The notes beneath the pieces were generated by a model, which did no database searches, was not told the origin of the DNA, and was given only the letters and a program-made list of their open reading frames with translations. From Malacoraja senta (taxonomy: Eukaryota), in contig CM075988.1 of assembly GCA_038087875.1 (NCBI GenBank), positions 6,200,001-6,264,000 of the forward strand: a DNA stretch of 64,000 nt, read 5' to 3'. The first letter of the stretch is position 1. Every line of letters begins with the position of its first letter. Shown in pieces: positions 16,494 through 52,957 of the stretch. The position numbers and the translations under genes were made by a program.

Positions 16494-16726
16494 GTAGACA
16501 AAAGTGCTGGAGAAACTCAGCGGGTACAGCAGCATTTATGGAGCGAAGAAATAGGCAACGTTTCGGGCCAAAACCCTTCTTCAGACTCAGTCTTCTTCAG
16601 TCTGAAGAAGGGTTTCAGCCCGAAACGTTGCCTATTTCCTTCGCTCCATAGATGCTGCCGCACCCGCTGAGTTTCTCCAGCACTTTTGTCTACCTTCGAT
16701 TTTCCAGCATCTGCAGTTCCTTCTCA
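16494..16726. mobile_element. Penelope-derived fold-back element with back-to-back hammerhead cores and a TSD
   Basis: About 95-bp near-perfect inverted arms; core CTGAAGAAGGGTTTCAGCCCGAAACGTT; TSD AAGATAT(G/T)CACTGTAG (16482-16497 and 16727-16742). Confidence 0.85.
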
Positions 16727-17417: not shown

Positions 17418-17592
17418 TGTAACTCAGCAGGTCAGGCAGCATCACTGGAGAACATGGACAGGTAACGTTTCAGGTCGAGTTAGGAGTCTGAAGAAGGGTT
17501 TCGACCCTGAATGTCAACTATCCATGTTCTGCAGGGATGCTGCTTGGCCTGCTTGAGCAACTCCAGCACTTTGTGTCTTTTTAGATAAGTGA

Positions 17593-17777
17593 TCTTCTTC
17601 TTCTTTTCGTGTCCATCCTGTTACAAATGTTGGCCTCGCTGTCATCGTCCGTCCTGAAAAGGACGCAGGCTTCCGTGGAAGCCATCACTTGTCGCAATAG
17701 ATGACGGTGGTAGCAGAATTAGCTCAGGATGCTTCCAGTTTCCAGCCCCGCGTCGTGGACGCTTCTGCTATGGGGCC
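17593..17777 (-). mobile_element. Ribozyme-headed non-autonomous retroposon with an RTE-type (GAA)n tail
   Basis: Perfect 10-bp TSD AGATAAGTGA (17583-17592 and 17778-17787). The 3' end is GCCAACATTTGTAACAGGATGGACACGAAAAGAAGAAGAAGA. No Pol III A/B boxes. Confidence 0.85.
17711..17777 (-). ncRNA. HDV-like (CPEB3-like) self-cleaving ribozyme
   Basis: GGCCCC-A-UAGCAGAA-GCG-UCCACGA-CGC-GGGGCU-GG-AAACUGGAAGCAUCCUGAG-CUAA-UUCUGCUA. P1 is 6 bp with a G1.U wobble, P2 8 bp, P3 3 bp, L3 7 nt, P1.1 CC/GG, followed by a P4 hairpin; catalytic C in J4/2 at 17722. Confidence 0.85.
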
Positions 17778-18034
17778 AGATAAGTGAAGAGTGATGATCT
17801 TGGCATCATGTTTGGCACAGACATTGTGGGCTGAAGGGCCTGTTCTTGTGCTGTACTGTTCTATATTCCAGGTTCCAGCACCTTTCACGGTGACATTATA
17901 CCAAGGGCAGCAGACACATGGGTGCACCACCACCTGCAGGTTCCCCCATTGAATTGCCACCATCCTTATTGTAAATACATCACCATTGGACCCCTTGTTG
18001 CATGTGGAAAACACAGCAGCCAAATGATGCTCAG

Positions 18035-33494: not shown

Positions 33495-33711
33495 AAGAAG
33501 GAACTGCAGATGCTGGAAAAACAAAAGTAGACAAAAACTGGAGAAACTCAGTGGGTGAGGCAGCATCTATGGAGCGAAGGAAATAGGCAACGTTTAACAT
33601 CAACATCAACATCAAACCCTTCTTCATGGTTTCGGCCCGAAACGTTGCCTATTTCCTTCGCTCCATAGATGCTGCCTCAGCCGCTGAGTTTCTCCAGCAC
33701 TTTTGTCTACT
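33495..33711. mobile_element. Penelope-derived fold-back element with a perfect 13-bp TSD
   Basis: TSD GTTGATTTTGATT (33482-33494 and 33712-33724); internal (AACATC)n. Confidence 0.85.
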
Positions 33712-41654: not shown

Positions 41655-42201
41655 ACCGGCCCTATTACTCAGAAGGGTAGGGAAAAGAAGAGGAGGGCAA
41701 TAGTAATAGGGGACTATGGTTAGGGGGTCGGATAGGCGATTCTGTGGACGCAGTCAGGAGACCCGGATGGTAGTGTGCCTCCCTGGTGCCAGGGTCAGGG
41801 ATGTGTCTGAACATGTCCAAGAGATCCTGAAATCGGAGGGAGAGGAGCCTGAGGTTGTGGTACATATAGGTACCAATGACATAGGCAGAAAAAGAGAAGA
41901 GGCCCTGAAAGGAGAATTTAGGGAGTTGGGAGGAGAGTTAAGGAGAACGTCCGCAAAGGTAACAATCTCAGGATTACTACCTGTGCCACGCGACAGTGAG
42001 AGCAGGAACGAAATGAGGTGGAGGATAAATGCGTGGCTGAGGAACTGGTGCAGCGAGCAGGGATTCAAATTTCTGGATCATTGGGACCTCTTTTGGGGAA
42101 GGTGTGACCTGTATAGAAAGGACGGGTTGCACTTGAACCCGAGGGGAACCAATATCCTGGCGGGGAGATTTGCAAAGGCTACTGGGGAGACTTTAAACTA
42201 G
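41655..42201 (+). pseudogene. CR1 ORF1 SGNH/GDSL esterase domain, frameshifted at the catalytic Ser
   Basis: RAIVIGD followed by a frameshift at 41715, then CLPGARV, VVHIGTND and KDGLHLN blocks. Confidence 0.9.
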
Positions 42202-42206
42202 AACGG

Positions 42207-45200
42207 TTGGGGGGAGGGACTCAAATAGAGAAAGATGGTAGAAAAGGTGGGAGGCAGGAGGCAGAGAAGGGAAGCACTCGGACCCAAAATGTAGGGGAGA
42301 AAGAAGAAAAAGATAATAAACAGAGAATAAGTGGTGGTGGGTTTCTTAAATGTGTATATTTTAATGCTAGGAGCATTGTAAGAAAGGTGGATGAGCTTAG
42401 AGTCTGGATTGACACCTGGAAGTATGATGTTGTGGTGATCAGTGAAACATGGTTGCAGGAGGGCTGTGATTGGAAACTAAATATTCCAGGATTTCGTTGC
42501 TTCAGGGGTGATAGAATTGGAGGGGCAAGAGGTGGGGGTGTTGCATTGCTTGTCAAGGAAGATATTACAGCAGTGCTTTGGCAGGATAGATTAGAGGGCT
42601 CGTCTAGGGAGGCTATTTGGGTGGAGCTGAGAAATGGGAAAGGTGTAGCAACACTTATAGGTGTGTATTATAGACCGCCAAATGGGGAGCGAGAATTGGA
42701 AGAGCAAATATGTAAGGAGATAGCAGATATTAGTAGTAAGCACAAGGTAGTGATTGTGGGAGATTTCAATTTTCCACACATAGACTGGGAAACACATTCT
42801 GTAAATGGGCTGGATGGTTTGGAGTTTGTAAAATGTGTGCAGGATAGTTTTTTGCAGCAATACATAGAGGTACCTACTAGAGAAGGGGCAGTGCTGGACC
42901 TCCTGTTAGCAAATGAGACTGGGCAGGTGGCGGAGGTATGCGTTGGGGAGCACTTCGGGTCCAGTGATCACAATACCATTAGTTTCAATATAATTATGGA
43001 GAGGGTCAGAACTGGACCTAGGGTTGAGATTTTTGATTGGAGAAAGGCTAACTTTGAGGAGATGCGAAAGGATTTAAAAGGAGTGAATTGGGACATGTTG
43101 TTTTATGGGAAGGATGTAGAAGAGAAATGGTGGACATTTAAAGGTGAAATTTTAAGAGTACAGAATCTTTATGTACCTGTTCGGTTGAAAGGAAATAGTA
43201 AAAATTGGAAAGAGCCATGGTTTTCAAGGGAAATTGGACACTTGGTTCGGAAAAAGAGAGAGATCTACAATAATTATAGGCAGCATGGAGTAAATGTGGT
43301 GCTTGAGGAGTATAAAGAATGTAAATAGAATATTAAGAAAGAAATTAGAAAAGCTAAAAGAAGATATGAGGTTGCTTTGGCAAGTAAGGTGAAAGTAAAT
43401 CCAAAGGGTTTCTACAGCTATATTAATAGCAAAAGGATAACAAGGAATAAAATTGGTCCATTAGAGAGTCAGAGTGGACAGCTATCTGCAGAGCCAAAAG
43501 AGATGGGGGAGATACTGAACAATTTCTTTTCTTCGGTATTCACCAAGGAGAAGGATATGGAATTATGTGAGGTAAGGGAAACAAGCAGAGTAGCAATGGA
43601 AACTATGAGATTCAAAGAAGAGGAGGTGCGGACACTTTTGAAAAAGATGAAAACGGATAAGTCTCCAGGTCCTGACAGGATATTCCCGAGGATATTGAGG
43701 GAAGTTAGTGTAGAAATAGCAGGGGCTATGACAGAAATATTTCAAATGTCATTGGAAACGGGAATAGTGCCGGAGGATTGGCGTACTGCGCATGTTGTTC
43801 CGTTGTTTAAAAAGGGTTCTAAGAGTAAACCTAGCAATTATAGAACTGTTACTTTGACGTCAGTGGTGGGCAAATTAATGGAAAGGATACTTAAAGATAA
43901 TATATATAAGCATCTGGATAAGATAGATAGATAGATAGATAAACATTTATTGTCACATACACCAATAGGTGCAGTGAAATTTGACTTGCCAATGCAGCAC
44001 ACAAATAAAGATTACATCCAAGAATTTAACAACATAAAAACATCCCCCCACAATGGTTCCCACTGTGCGGGAAGGCAGCAAAGTCCAGTCCCATCCCCAG
44101 TTCACCCATAGTCGGGGCAGGGTCTGATTAGGAACAGTCAACATGGATTTGTGCCTAGAAGGTCATGTTTGACTAATCTTCTAGAATTTTTCGAAGAGGT
44201 TACTAGGGAAATTGATGAGGGTAAAGCAGTGGATGTTGTCTATATGGACTTCAGTAAGGCCTTTGACAAGGTTCCTCATGGAAGGTTGGTTAAGAAGATT
44301 CAATTGTTGGGTATTAATGGTGGAGTAGCAAGATGGATTCAACAGTGGCTGAATGGGAGATGCCAGAGAGTAATGGTGGATGGCTGTTTGTCAGGTTGGA
44401 GGCCGGTGAATAGTGGGGTGCCTCAGGGGTCTGTGTTGGGTCCACTGTTGTTTGTCATGTACATCAATGATCTGGATGATGGTGTGGAAAATTGGATTAG
44501 TAAGTATGCAGATGATACTAAGATAGGTGGTGTGGTGGATAATGAAGTAGATTTTCAAAGTCTACAGAGAGATTTAGGCCATTTGGAAGAGTGGGCTGAA
44601 AGATGGCAGATGGAGTTTAATGCTGATAAATGTGAGGTACTACATCTCGGCAGGACAAATCAAAATAGGACGTACATGGTAAATGGTAGAGAATTGAGGA
44701 ATGCAGTTGAACAGAGGGATCTAGGAATAACTGTGCATAGTTCCCTGAAGGTGGAATCTCATGTAGATAGGGTGGTAAAGAAAGCTTTTGGGGTGCTGGC
44801 CTTTATAAATCAGAGCATTGAATATAGAAGTTGGGATGTAATGTTAAAATTGTACAAGGCATTGGTGAGGCCAATTCTGGAGTATGGAGTACAATTTTGG
44901 TCGCCTAATTATAGGAAGGATGTCAACAAAATAGAGAGAGTACAGTGGAGATTTATTAGAATGTTGCCTGGGTTTCAGCAACTAAGTTACAGAGAAAGGT
45001 TGAACAAGTTAGGTCTTTATTCTTTGGAGCGCAGAAGGTTAAGAGGGGACTTGATAGAGGTCTTTAAAATTATGAGCGGGTTAGACAGAGTTGACGTGGA
45101 TAAGCTTTTTCCATTGAGAGTAGGGAAGATTCAAACAAGGGGACATGACTTGAGAATTAAGGGACAGAAGTTTAGGGGTAACATTAGGGGGGACTTCTTT

Positions 45201-45365
45201 ACTCAGAGAGTGGTAGCTGTGTGGAATGAGCTTCCAGTGGAAGTTGTGGAGGCTGGTTCGATTTTATCCTTTAAAAATAGATTGGATGGGTATATGGATG
45301 GGAAAGGAATGGAGGGTTATGGTCTGAGTGCAGGTAGATGGGACAAGGGGGAAGTATTTATTTAA
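42207..45365 (+). pseudogene. CR1 ORF2 (APE endonuclease + reverse transcriptase) with one nonsense codon and one 195-bp insertion
   Basis: YFNARS, ISETW, GVYYRPP, VGDFN, SDH; KSPGPD, QHGF, YMDFSKAFD, GVPQGSVLGP, YADD. TAG at 43326-43328 and an insertion at 43923-44117. Confidence 0.95.
43923..44117 (-). mobile_element. Short Rex-tailed retroposon 3' end with an (ATCT)n tail, inside CR1 ORF2
   Basis: Minus strand carries GCCTTCCCGCACAGTG and TGACAATAAATG followed by (TATC)n. Removing it restores KHLDK|QGLIRNSQHGF. Confidence 0.8.
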
Positions 45366-52014: not shown

Positions 52015-52957
52015 GAGTAGAGTCATTGAGTCATACAACGTGGAAACAGGACTTCAGCCCAACTTGCTCACACCGACCGACATGGCCCACCTACACTAGT
52101 CGCACCTGCTTGTGTTTGGCCCATATTCCTCTAAACCCACCCTATCCATGTACCTGCCTAAATGTTTCTTAAGCATTGTGATAGTACCTACCTCATCTTC
52201 TTCCGCCAGCAATTTGTTCCATACACCCACCACCCTTTGTGTTAAAAAGTTACCCCTCAGGTTCCTATTAAATCTTTCCCCCCTCACATTAAGCCTATGT
52301 CCTCTGGTTCTCGATTACCCAACTCTGGGCAAGAGACTCTGTGCCTTTATCCGATTTATTCCCCTCATTATTATGTACATCCCTCATCCTCCTGCGCTCC
52401 AAGGTTTGGACGGGCTAGATGCAGGAAAAATGTTTCCGAAGTTGGGGAGGCCAGAACCAGGGGTCACAGTTTAAGAATAAGATGAGGAAAAACTTTTTCA
52501 CCCAGAGAGTTGTGAATCTGTGGAATTCTCTGCCACAGAAGGCAGTGGAGACCAATTCACTGGATGTTTTCAAGAGAGAGTTAGATTTAGCTCTTAGGGC
52601 TAAAGGAATCAAGGGATATGGGGAACAGGGTACTGATTTTGGATGATCAACCATGATCATATTGAATGGGGGTAGACAAAATTGCTGGAGAAACTCAGCG
52701 GGTGCAGCAGCATCTATGGAGCGAAGGAAATAGGCAACGTTTCGGGCCGAAACCCTTCTTCAGACTTTCGGCCCGAAACGTTGCCTATTTCCTTTGCTCC
52801 ATAGATGCTGCTGCACCCGCTGAGTTTCTCCAGCATATTTTGTCTACCTTTGATTTTCCAGCATCTGCAGTTCCTTCTGGAATATTGAATGGCGGTGCTG
52901 GCTTGAAGGGCCGAATGGCACCTATTTCCTATGTTTCTATGTTTCTATGTTTCTATG
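52015..52957. mobile_element. Opposed CR1 3' fragments; the plus-strand copy contains a Penelope fold-back element (approx. 52673-52881)
   Basis: Minus strand encodes NLRGNFLTQRVVGVWN and plus strand FFTQRVVNLWNSLP; TSD ATATTGAATGG flanks the fold-back. Confidence 0.85.

What the first reader, a model, noticed from the sequence alone, without database searches (positions are those of the whole stretch)
17593..17777. Ribozyme-headed retroposon: an HDV-like ribozyme defines the 5' end of a 185-bp RTE-tailed element
Seen in the sequence: the element is flanked by a perfect 10-bp TSD (AGATAAGTGA). On the minus strand it begins GGCCCC-A-UAGCAGAA-GCG-UCCACGA-CGC-GGGGCU-GG-[P4]-GCUAA-UUCUGCUA. Every element of the HDV nested double pseudoknot is present in the right order: G1.U wobble, 8-bp P2, 3-bp P3, L3 with the U20/G25 equivalents, 2-bp P1.1 (CC/GG), and the catalytic C in J4/2 at 17722. 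The predicted scissile bond (5' of G1) coincides to the nucleotide with the TSD junction. The 3' end resembles RTE LINE termini (GCCAAC...GGACAC plus (GAA)n), and there are no Pol III boxes. Established knowledge: HDV-like ribozymes process the 5' ends of R2 and some RTE non-LTR elements. Inference: this is a promoterless SINE-like element that cuts itself out of read-through host transcripts and borrows RTE reverse transcriptase. Caveats: P1 is 6 bp rather than the usual 7, and P4 has a U-U mismatch.
Basis: partly seen in the sequence, partly recalled or inferred. Interest (0 to 1): 0.95.

Follow-up and report, generated by a model that had tools for sequence, protein, structure and literature searches.

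The report
Ribozyme-headed short retroposon from RTE-like LINE
This 185-base repeat is one copy of a thousand-copy short retroposon, an internally deleted RTE-like LINE that keeps the LINE's self-cleaving HDV/CPEB3-type ribozyme at its very first base; the kind is known, but its ribozyme looks strikingly like the mammalian CPEB3 ribozyme.

Summary
Window 17593-17777 (minus strand) is a retroposon copy flanked by a perfect 10-bp duplication, and its first 67 nt fit the HDV-like double pseudoknot. Rfam's CPEB3_ribozyme model matches it at 32.6 bits, just under the 35-bit cut-off; 13 of 20 sister copies pass.

The genome holds at least 1,149 near-identical heads. All aligned full-length copies start at G1 next to unrelated flanks. 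Across six ribozyme-headed families, 11 of 19 pairs in P1, P2, P3 and P1.1 change on both sides, and 90.6% of cells stay paired.

The element is not a self-made SINE. It is an internally deleted derivative of a low-copy RTE-like LINE ("LINE S") in the same genome. It keeps that LINE's ribozyme, part of its 5' UTR, its start codon plus about 20 codons, and its last ~40 nt with the (GAA)n tail. A second RTE-like LINE with open reading frames shares the terminal GACACGAAAAGAAGAAG.

Self-cleavage and read-through transcription are inferred, not shown; poly(A) RNA reads showed no pile-up of starts at G1.

Ribozyme-headed RTEs and short internally deleted elements are already described, so this is a new member of a known kind. 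The near-identity to the mammalian CPEB3 ribozyme is the interesting lead.

The parts
17778..17787 (.). Target-site duplication, copy next to the element's 5' end (TCACTTATCT on the minus strand)
   Evidence: Read directly. Identical to 17583-17592.
17593..17777 (-). The whole retroposon copy, 185 nt. Typical copies are about 190-196 nt; this one has an 11-nt internal deletion and 5 substitutions against the majority.
17711..17777 (-). HDV-like (CPEB3-type) ribozyme, nt 1-67; predicted cleavage 5' of G1 (17777)
   Evidence: Rfam RF00622 at 32.6 bits. 13 of 20 sister copies reach 35 bits or more. Covariation.
17772..17777 (-). P1 5' strand GGCCCC (pairs with 17744-17749 GGGGCU; G1.U wobble)
   Evidence: P1 columns covary across families, 5 of 7 pairs with changes on both sides.
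17763..17770 (-). P2 5' strand UAGCAGAA (pairs with 17711-17718 UUCUGCUA)
   Evidence: 5 of 8 P2 pairs change on both sides across families.
17750..17762 (-). P3 (GCG/CGC) enclosing L3 UCCACGA. The last L3 base (17753) is A here and U in the family majority.
17739..17743 (-). J1/4 GGAAA. The two G can pair with CC of L3 (P1.1).
   Evidence: The C-G P1.1 pair is kept in 61 of 62 aligned ribozymes.
17725..17738 (-). P4, weak: CUGGA-AGCA-UCCUG with a U-U mismatch
   Evidence: Read. P4 is variable or absent in sister families.
17719..17724 (-). J4/2 AGCUAA with the predicted catalytic C at 17722
   Evidence: This C is kept in at least 90% of the 62 aligned ribozymes.
17636..17710 (-). Stretch derived from the parent LINE's 5' UTR and first ~20 codons (ATG at 17683-17685). 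Contains the 11-nt deletion and a T4 run at 17657-17660.
   Evidence: Alignment to LINE S copies. T4 run and ATG.
17593..17635 (-). 3' end derived from the parent LINE: GGCCAACAUUUGUAACAGGAUGGACACGAAAAG plus the (GAA)n tail
   Evidence: Matches the LINE S 3' end. Shares GACACGAAAAGAAGAAG with LINE A.
17583..17592 (.). Target-site duplication, copy after the tail

Best explanation
The element is a non-autonomous non-LTR retroposon of the 'short internally deleted element' (SIDE) type, derived from an RTE-like LINE of the same genome.

What it keeps from that LINE:
- the 5' HDV-like (CPEB3-type) self-cleaving ribozyme;
- part of the 5' UTR;
- the start codon and about 20 codons;
- the last ~40 nt with the (GAA)n tail.

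Proposed mechanism:
1. The element has no promoter of its own and is transcribed as part of longer Pol II transcripts (inferred).
2. The ribozyme folds co-transcriptionally and cuts 5' of G1, freeing an RNA whose first base is the element's first base. This is inferred from structure, covariation and the uniform 5' junction.
3. The reverse transcriptase/endonuclease of an RTE-like LINE recognises the shared 3' end and copies the RNA into a new site by target-primed reverse transcription. This leaves 7-13-bp duplications. The duplications and the shared tail are shown; which LINE does it is inferred. LINE S is the parent. LINE A still has open reading frames and the same terminal 17 nt.

The window copy is an ordinary, slightly damaged insertion.
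For: Family:
- 2,038 first-look candidates; the 40 scored are 89-100% identical over the full length.
- 1,149 matches to the first 43 nt at up to 3 mismatches; reversed control 0.
- 28 independent copies lie 0-3.7% from the majority, apart from two outliers at 8.0% (L002) and 8.6% (the window copy), so 26 of the 28 lie within that range.

5' junction:
- 30 of 30 aligned copies begin at the same base with unrelated flanks: 28 GGCCCC, 1 AGCCCC, 1 GGTCCC.
- Of 41 independent full-length copies, 27 have an exact duplication of 7-13 nt (mode 12) ending at base -1.
- In contigs of two runs, likeness ends at L008 1689-1692 (G1 = 1690), and what follows agrees only 0.36-0.42.

Ribozyme:
- CPEB3_ribozyme hits in 20 of 20 copies at E <= 0.001, with 13 of 20 at or above the 35-bit cut-off.
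- No other Rfam family matched the window's ribozyme stretch on the ribozyme's own (minus) strand at E <= 10.
- On 62 distinct ribozymes of six families, 90.6% of cells pair against 34-53% with slid partners.
- 11 of 19 pairs change on both sides, and 0 of 500 shuffles reach the covariation score.

Parent LINE:
- LINE S copies start with the same ribozyme (L114, L134, L136).
- They match the short element in the 5' UTR and first codons, and again in the last ~40 nt.
- A DNA search with the LINE's early coding stretch gave 5 long LINE copies and many 73-nt hits, which I read as the short element's copies without fetching them.

RTE-like nature:
- LINE A has a ribozyme head and a single 1002-aa frame with AP endonuclease and reverse transcriptase domains. 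Its 3' UTR is ~35 nt and ends in GACACGAAAAGAAGAAG(GAA)n.

Not Pol III:
- No A or B box, and an internal T4 run.

Precedent:
- Cleavage at the 5' junction in RTE, R4 and L1 clade elements (passages of PMC3774820).
- R2 SIDEs (PMC3414825).
Against: - No cleavage assay exists for this family.
- The window copy scores 32.6 bits, under Rfam's 35. It carries a private U-to-A change in L3.
- Pseudoknot-free folding energy is not better than shuffles (z = -0.13).
- P4 has a U-U mismatch.
- In raw poly(A) RNA reads of a related organism (X14), 109 reads lay on the element. Of these, 91 continued into unlike sequence, both mate directions occurred, and no place showed many molecules beginning at G1. 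So most RNA seen there is uncleaved or antisense embedding. A poly(A) library is a poor test for a 5'-OH fragment.
- LINE S copies are few and old (89-92% identical to the query copy over the early coding stretch), so the current driver is uncertain.
- The RTE clade assignment rests on architecture. No source named the clade and no tree with reference elements was made.
- The covariation is between families that share ancestry, so cells are not independent events.
Confidence: 0.82

Rival explanations
1. The head is an inherited but catalytically dead HDV-like relic. The uniform 5' end comes from a defined transcription start (an internal Pol II promoter in the first bases, as Pr77 in L1Tc) or from full-length reverse transcription of such a transcript.
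For: - Activity is untested.
- The window copy is under the Rfam cut-off.
- Folding energy is not special.
- RNA reads cross G1.
- L1Tc combines a promoter and a ribozyme in the same 77 nt (abstract of PMC3383444), so a dual or promoter-only role is conceivable.
Against: - P1 and P2 covary across six families, and the J4/2 C and the P1.1 pair are kept. That is hard to explain without selection on the fold.
- Every RTE-like family sampled with an intact 5' end carries an HDV-like head starting at its first base.
- A young, thousand-copy family keeps the head nearly unchanged.
Confidence: 0.1
2. A classical SINE: a Pol III transcript (tRNA, 5S or 7SL head) that merely ends in an RTE tail.
For: Short length, high copy number and a LINE-type tail.
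Against: - No A or B box at up to 2 mismatches.
- A T4 run at nt 129-132 of typical copies would stop Pol III before the tail.
- The head and body are homologous to the 5' end of a LINE, including its start codon.
- The only Rfam matches on this stretch besides CPEB3_ribozyme are two weak opposite-strand hits, Glutamine-II at E 0.83 and Histone3 at E 5.9.
Confidence: 0.02
3. A retrozyme-like element whose ribozyme serves to make circular RNA from tandem copies, rather than to trim a linear template.
For: Ribozyme-bearing non-autonomous elements that circularise are known for hammerhead retrozymes (passages of PMC7761336). One LINE A copy shows tandem partial repeats of the ribozyme's 5' half (L077).
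Against: - Copies are single, dispersed and flanked by duplications.
- No back-joined or tandem forms appeared among the joints.
- There is one ribozyme per element.
Confidence: 0.03

Closest known systems
R2 SIDEs (short internally deleted elements) of Drosophila (Eickbush & Eickbush 2012, PMC3414825; abstract and passages seen)
   Same: A non-autonomous non-LTR element made of the parent LINE's 5' HDV-like ribozyme joined to the parent's 3' end. Not Pol III transcribed, dependent on co-transcription, and mobilised in trans.
   Different: - The parent here is an RTE-like LINE with an AP endonuclease, not R2.
- Insertion is dispersed with 7-13-bp duplications, not rDNA-specific.
- Copy number is over 1,000 against a handful.
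- The short element also keeps the start codon and about 20 codons.
- The host is a cartilaginous fish by nearest named relatives of another repeat.
HDV-like ribozymes at the 5' ends of RTE, R4/Dong, baggins and L1Tc LINEs (Ruminski et al. 2011, not held here; cited in PMC3774820, and PMC6765202)
   Same: The ribozyme starts at the element's first base. The proposed role is to cut the element out of a read-through transcript. LINE A and LINE S of this genome fit this description.
   Different: Those reports, as far as the passages I saw list them, name insects, nematodes, sea urchin, lancelet, lamprey and trypanosomes. I saw no cartilaginous-fish or CPEB3-type example. I could not read the primary paper.
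NARTc / L1Tc of Trypanosoma cruzi (PMC3383444 and PMC4035085; abstracts seen)
   Same: A short non-autonomous partner shares the first ~77 nt, an HDV-like ribozyme, with its autonomous LINE.
   Different: L1Tc belongs to a different LINE clade. Its head doubles as an internal promoter, and transcription is polycistronic. No promoter activity is known or tested here.
Mammalian CPEB3 ribozyme (Rfam RF00622)
   Same: - Same fold and strikingly similar sequence. P3/L3 is GCGUUCACGUCGC, and J4/2-P2' is GCGAAUUCUGCU.
- In family C even the P4 5' strand matches (CAGAUUCUG).
- Sister heads score 43.7-64.2 bits against a 35-bit cut-off.
- By my hand count on the alignments, L072 is identical to the model consensus at 52 of 61 aligned positions and L081 at 52 of 67.
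   Different: The CPEB3 ribozyme is a single conserved intronic copy in mammals with a proposed role in the host gene. Here the ribozyme is the head of mobile elements. The window's family has a 6-bp P1 and L3 UCCACGU. Common descent is not shown.

Membership tests
HDV-like self-cleaving ribozymes | Nested double pseudoknot with the strand order P1, P2, P3, L3, P3', P1', J1/4, P4, J4/2, P2' | tested here: met
   The order is read. On 62 ribozymes, 90.6% of cells pair, 11 of 19 pairs change on both sides, and slid controls give 34-53%.
HDV-like self-cleaving ribozymes | Catalytic C in J4/2 and a C-G P1.1 pair between L3 and J1/4 | tested here: met
   C at 17722, kept in at least 90% of 62 aligned sequences. 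P1.1 is C-G in 61 of 62.
HDV-like self-cleaving ribozymes | Self-cleavage 5' of the first P1 nucleotide | not testable with these tools
   Indirect only. Genomic copies begin at G1. Poly(A) RNA reads showed no pile-up of starts.
Rfam CPEB3_ribozyme (RF00622) | Score at or above the curated gathering score of 35 bits | tested here: inconclusive
   The window copy scores 32.6 bits, not met. 13 of 20 sister copies score 35.1-43.4 and 7 of 20 score 29.4-34.1. Other families' heads in the genome reach 64.2 bits.
SINE in the strict sense (Pol III-transcribed) | Internal Pol III promoter (A and B boxes, or a 5S/7SL head) | tested here: not met
   No A or B box at up to 2 mismatches, and an internal T4 run (motifs recalled). 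The head is a LINE 5' end.
SIDE (short internally deleted non-LTR element) | Both ends colinear with an autonomous LINE of the same genome, with the interior missing | tested here: met
   The 5' ribozyme, UTR and first codons, and the last ~40 nt, all match LINE S. The break is seen as the 73-nt limit of short-element hits.
SIDE (short internally deleted non-LTR element) | Retroposed copies: dispersed, with target-site duplications and some 5' truncation | tested here: met
   27 of 41 copies have an exact duplication of 7-13 nt. Among 30 tail-selected loci, 23 alignments start at nt 1, 3 at nt 3-6, 2 at nt 10-11 and 2 at nt 34 and 67.
RTE clade of LINEs (for the parent and driver) | A single ~1000-aa frame with an N-terminal AP endonuclease and a reverse transcriptase, no ORF1, very short UTRs, and a short-repeat tail | tested here: met
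   LINE A has a 1002-aa frame with PF03372/PF14529 and PF00078. Its head is a ribozyme of ~84 nt, and its 3' UTR is ~35 nt with (GAA)n. These clade features are recalled from memory.
RTE clade of LINEs (for the parent and driver) | Placement with reference RTE reverse transcriptases in a tree | not tested
   No named reference sequences were at hand. Homologs at ~50% identity occur in lancelet, urchins, fishes, a lizard, insects and crabs, but carry no clade name.

The most novel reading that the evidence does not exclude
The mammalian CPEB3 ribozyme is a domesticated head of this lineage of RTE-type retroposons. A cartilaginous fish still carries the mobile relatives. Several LINE and short-element families there begin with ribozymes that match the CPEB3 model at up to 64 bits. 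They share with it not only the constrained core (P3/L3, J4/2) but also freely variable helices (P2, the P4 5' strand). That would name the donor of a ribozyme whose origin has been open since 2006, and it makes the question testable by comparative genomics.
Probability: 0.4. Interest if true: 0.8.

Novelty: new member of a known kind. Interest (0 to 1): 0.6.

Why it matters
- It gives a clean, high-copy vertebrate example of a promoterless retroposon whose 5' end appears to be set by a ribozyme. Its parent LINE sits in the same genome, so the minimal cis requirements of an RTE-type element can be read off: ribozyme head plus ~40-nt tail.
- HDV-like heads are the rule for the RTE-like families sampled in this genome. 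They come in at least three sequence types.
- The CPEB3-type heads are the first concrete candidate I could find for the source of the mammalian CPEB3 ribozyme. None of my five searches of the held library linked the two. Key papers of subscription journals could not be read.

Tried and rejected
Search for the LINE partner:
- A 68-nt tail query returned only copies of the short element. A blastn-short search of the ~240 kb then held found no LINE fragment.
It was not useful.
- L048 is a copy that starts right after the ribozyme. I checked its upstream side for a LINE frame. It lies antisense inside another LINE, so it is a plain 5' truncation.

RNA evidence:
- No RNA holder was listed.
- The one raw poly(A) RNA run (X14, another organism) gave no places where many molecules begin. 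This neither supports nor refutes cleavage.

Other checks:
- Folding energy against shuffles is not significant.
- Earlier findings of this scan: none.
- Host genes around the copy: 30 of the 102 window frames of 95 aa or more were scanned. Only LINE domains and a GDSL esterase appeared, so intron or exon context and orientation relative to a host gene could not be set.

Literature:
- Papers not held: Ruminski 2011, Webb 2009, Jimenez 2015.
- One search with shark and skate terms listed nothing relevant.

Rows dropped before the covariation count:
- 78 candidate ribozymes were considered.
- L086 had no core match.
- L061, L072 and L085 had P2' ends mis-set by my script.
- L006 and L009 were segmental duplicates.
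- 10 exact duplicates were removed, leaving 62 rows.

Full report
**The observation.** On the minus strand the element runs from G1 at 17777 to 17593. It is bracketed by a perfect 10-nt duplication, TCACTTATCT, at 17787-17778 and 17592-17583.

Its first 67 nt read GGCCCC-A-UAGCAGAA-GCG-UCCACGA-CGC-GGGGCU-GGAAA-CUGGA-AGCA-UCCUG-A-GCUAA-UUCUGCUA. This is the strand order of an HDV-like ribozyme:
- a 6-bp P1 closed by G1.U;
- an 8-bp P2;
- a 3-bp P3;
- two G after P1' that can pair with CC of L3 (P1.1);
- a weak P4 with a U-U mismatch;
- a C in J4/2 at 17722.

Rfam at default thresholds lists nothing in the window. With E-value thresholds, the CPEB3_ribozyme model (RF00622) matches 17712-17789 on the minus strand at 32.6 bits, against a cut-off of 35. 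E is 3.3e-7 on the 261-nt stretch and 8.2e-5 on the whole window. Nothing else matches the ribozyme itself: the two other hits in that stretch are weak and lie on the opposite strand (Glutamine-II, E 0.83; Histone3, E 5.9).

Pseudoknot-free folding energy is not better than shuffles (z = -0.13). The case therefore rests on the model score and on comparison, not on thermodynamics.

**A large, young family with one 5' junction.**
- The window's own genome (1.94 Gb) gave 2,038 first-look candidates. All 40 scored are full-length at 89-100% identity.
- A 43-nt pattern of the head matches 1,149 places at up to 3 mismatches, and its reversed control matches none.
- Typical copies are about 190-196 nt. 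The window copy lacks 11 nt in the middle and differs by 5 substitutions.
- 26 of the 28 independent copies lie 0-3.7% from the majority; L002 (8.0%) and the window copy (8.6%) are the two outliers. This sample was chosen by similarity to the window copy.
- All 30 aligned copies begin at the same base with unrelated upstream DNA.
- Of 41 independent full-length copies, 27 have an exact duplication of 7-13 nt (mode 12) that ends at base -1. One has only 5 nt, and 13 have no exact match, although several of those are visibly imperfect duplications.
- Among 30 loci picked by the tail alone, 23 alignments start at nt 1, 3 at nt 3-6, 2 at nt 10-11, and 2 are truncated at nt 34 and 67.
- Contigs of two public runs (3,526 and 4,183 pieces laid) lose likeness at the element's two ends. 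What follows G1 agrees only 0.36-0.42 between pieces.

**The head is a CPEB3-type HDV-like ribozyme, with covariation.**
- Of 20 sister copies, 20 hit CPEB3_ribozyme at E <= 0.001 and 13 reach the 35-bit cut-off (29.4-43.4 bits).
- A whole-genome search with RF00622 scored 59 candidates. 51 matched at E <= 0.001 and 39 were over the cut-off, with a best score of 64.2 bits.
- I fetched 48 of these places. They are not this family. They belong to at least five other repeat families that also begin with such a ribozyme.
- I aligned 62 distinct heads from the six families. Dropped rows are listed under Tried and rejected.
- Counting P1, P2, P3 and one P1.1 pair gave 90.6% paired cells, against 34-53% when partners are slid.
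- 11 of 19 pairs change on both sides: 5 of 7 in P1, 5 of 8 in P2, 1 of 3 in P3.
- 0 of 500 shuffles reach the covariation score.
- The changes lie between families, which share ancestry, so they are few events rather than 192 independent ones.
- P3/L3 (GCGUUCACGUCGC), the G after P1' and the J4/2 C-AA are nearly fixed.
- A 6-bp P1 is within the normal range. The papers say 'typically 6 or 7 bp' (PMC3774820) and '6- or 7-bp P1' (PMC4908430).

**Where the element comes from.** One of the other families, here called LINE A, is an autonomous element.
- Its ribozyme is followed within ~20 nt by a frame with an AP endonuclease. The frame reads open for 1002 codons in locus L077 and carries a reverse transcriptase domain.
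- About ten loci match its first 190 residues at 94% identity or more over most of their length. Four of these have open frames over 900 codons.
- Its 3' UTR is only ~35 nt, CCAACCAGCUUCAAAGACACGAAAAGAAGAAG(GAA)n, in three copies. It therefore shares the terminal GACACGAAAAGAAGAAG with the short element.
- Homologs at ~50% identity occur on ~3.1-3.4-kb contigs of very diverse animals, but no source names the clade.

Sampling the 5' ends of 17 further endonuclease-bearing loci gave these results:
- 13 showed HDV-like heads at what appears to be the element's first bases, in three sequence types: L3 UUCACGU/UUCUCGU, UCCUCGU and UCCCCGU.
- Two loci showed none.
- One locus was 5'-truncated.
- One locus was masked (N).
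- Rfam gives the non-CPEB3 types only weak hits to HDV-like families.

One of these loci, L114, begins with the very ribozyme of the short element. This copy of 'LINE S' is ~3.1 kb and flanked by TTGATAAAC.
- The short element matches LINE S over the ribozyme and part of the 5' UTR.
- It also matches the stretch from ACAAGUGAUGGCU (the start codon) through about 20 codons, and again the last ~40 nt. The LINE end reads GGCCGAACAUUUGAAACAUAAGAUGAUGGACACGAAAGAAGA, against GGCCAACAUUUGUAACAAGAUGGACACGAAAAGAAGA in the short element.
- Two other LINE S copies have the head intact, including P2' (L134, L136).
- A DNA search with the LINE's early coding stretch found 5 long copies (89-100% identical). 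It also found many 73-nt hits that stop where the short element's homology stops.

The short element is therefore LINE S minus ~55 nt of 5' UTR and ~2.85 kb of coding sequence.

**How it most likely works.**

Shown:
- the fold's conservation;
- the common 5' base;
- the duplications;
- the LINE ancestry;
- the shared tail.

Inferred:
- transcription as part of longer Pol II transcripts;
- co-transcriptional self-cleavage 5' of G1;
- capture of the tail by an RTE-like reverse transcriptase in trans.

There is no A or B box, and an internal T4 run argues against Pol III. Which LINE drives the young family is open. LINE S is the parent, but it is rare and decayed. LINE A has open frames and the same last 17 nt.

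Raw poly(A) RNA reads of a related organism lay on the element in both mate directions. 91 of 109 continued into unlike flanks, and there was no pile-up of starts at G1. This shows embedding in longer transcripts. It does not test cleavage.

**Comparison with what is known.**
- Ribozyme-defined 5' ends are described for R2, R4/Dong, baggins, L1Tc and RTE elements (passages in PMC3774820; PMC6765202).
- Short derivatives that keep the ribozyme and the 3' end are described as well: R2 SIDEs (PMC3414825) and NARTc (abstracts).
- The finding is therefore a new member of a known kind: an RTE-derived SIDE with over 1,000 copies.
- By the nearest named relatives of another repeat in the window, the host is probably a cartilaginous fish. 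Those relatives are rays, at 66-78% identity.
- It fails the strict definition of a SINE.

**The lead worth following.**
- The heads in this genome are not just HDV-like. They are specifically CPEB3-like.
- Only RF00622 matches the heads of families A-E at E <= 1, at 43.7-61.3 bits in the eight loci shown.
- By my hand count on those alignments, L072 agrees with the model consensus at 52 of 61 aligned positions and L081 at 52 of 67. The agreement includes P2 and the 5' strand of P4, which covariation shows are free to vary.
- Other RTE-like heads in the same genome use different P3/L3 sequences, so function does not force this sequence.
- A review states in general terms that conserved intronic ribozymes were probably co-opted from mobile elements (PMC7761336).
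- None of my five searches found a paper tying the CPEB3 ribozyme to RTE-type elements. The key primary papers were not readable here.

**Verdict.** The novelty is modest for the element itself. Interest is raised by the CPEB3-type ribozyme superfamily that it uncovers.

Noticed in passing
L073-L075 and L088-L111 (for example G000:C13:8595480-8596204): A second short repeat family ('E') begins with a P4-less, ~55-nt CPEB3-type ribozyme (GGGGUCAAGGAAAGAGCGUUCACGUCGCGGCCC(C)UGUUUCCACCAAUCUUUCC). It ends in GGACUCGAUAAGAAG. About 25 of the 51 RF00622 matches belong to it. Two sub-types differ by one C in P1', which changes G1-C to G1.U.
   Followed up: partly
L114-L130 (5' ends of 17 endonuclease-bearing loci): The RTE-like families sampled carry HDV-like heads of at least three sequence types (L3 UUCACGU/UUCUCGU, UCCUCGU, UCCCCGU). 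One family has a long P4/J region, with P2' about 60 nt downstream.
   Followed up: partly
L077:3660-3781 (minus strand; head of a LINE A copy): The 5' end shows tandem partial repeats of the ribozyme's P2-P3-L3-P1' half (AGAAGCGUUCACGUCGCGAUCAAGGU repeated) in front of an otherwise open 1008-codon frame. Only ~120 nt upstream of the frame were fetched, so the true start of this copy was not seen.
   Followed up: no
window 17593-17685 (minus); typical copies such as L008:1501-1598: Typical copies keep an open frame from the LINE's ATG (nt 93) through the tail (MASTDCRRKLASFSGRTMTARPTFVTRWTRKE..., no stop before the flank). The window copy's 11-nt deletion shifts the frame. Whether the retained start region matters, for example for ribozyme-linked translation or cis-preference, is unknown.
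   Followed up: no
window 41710-45362 (+): Another LINE of a different kind: a GDSL-esterase frame (41710-42198), an AP endonuclease frame (42117-43325, 403 aa) and a reverse transcriptase frame (44112-45362). The nearest named relatives of the endonuclease frame are in rays, at 66-78% identity.
   Followed up: partly
L008:1693-1780 versus 1420-1497, run X9: A differently labelled organism (E) holds the flank on the G1 side of this copy (depth 56, 2 other letters) but not the flank on the tail side. This hints at a different arrangement or an empty or altered site in that relative.
   Followed up: no
L070, L072, L081, L084, L086: Family 'C' heads are the most CPEB3-like in sequence, including P4. 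They are followed by ACCACACACCACACUG..., the copies are decayed, and what they head (a LINE or a short element) was not worked out.
   Followed up: no
window 33546-33690, 16551-16637, 52728-52788: Sub-threshold matches to microRNA precursor models (MIR1507 on both strands, and mir-722). They look like long inverted repeats of other repeats, and all are far below the gathering scores.
   Followed up: no
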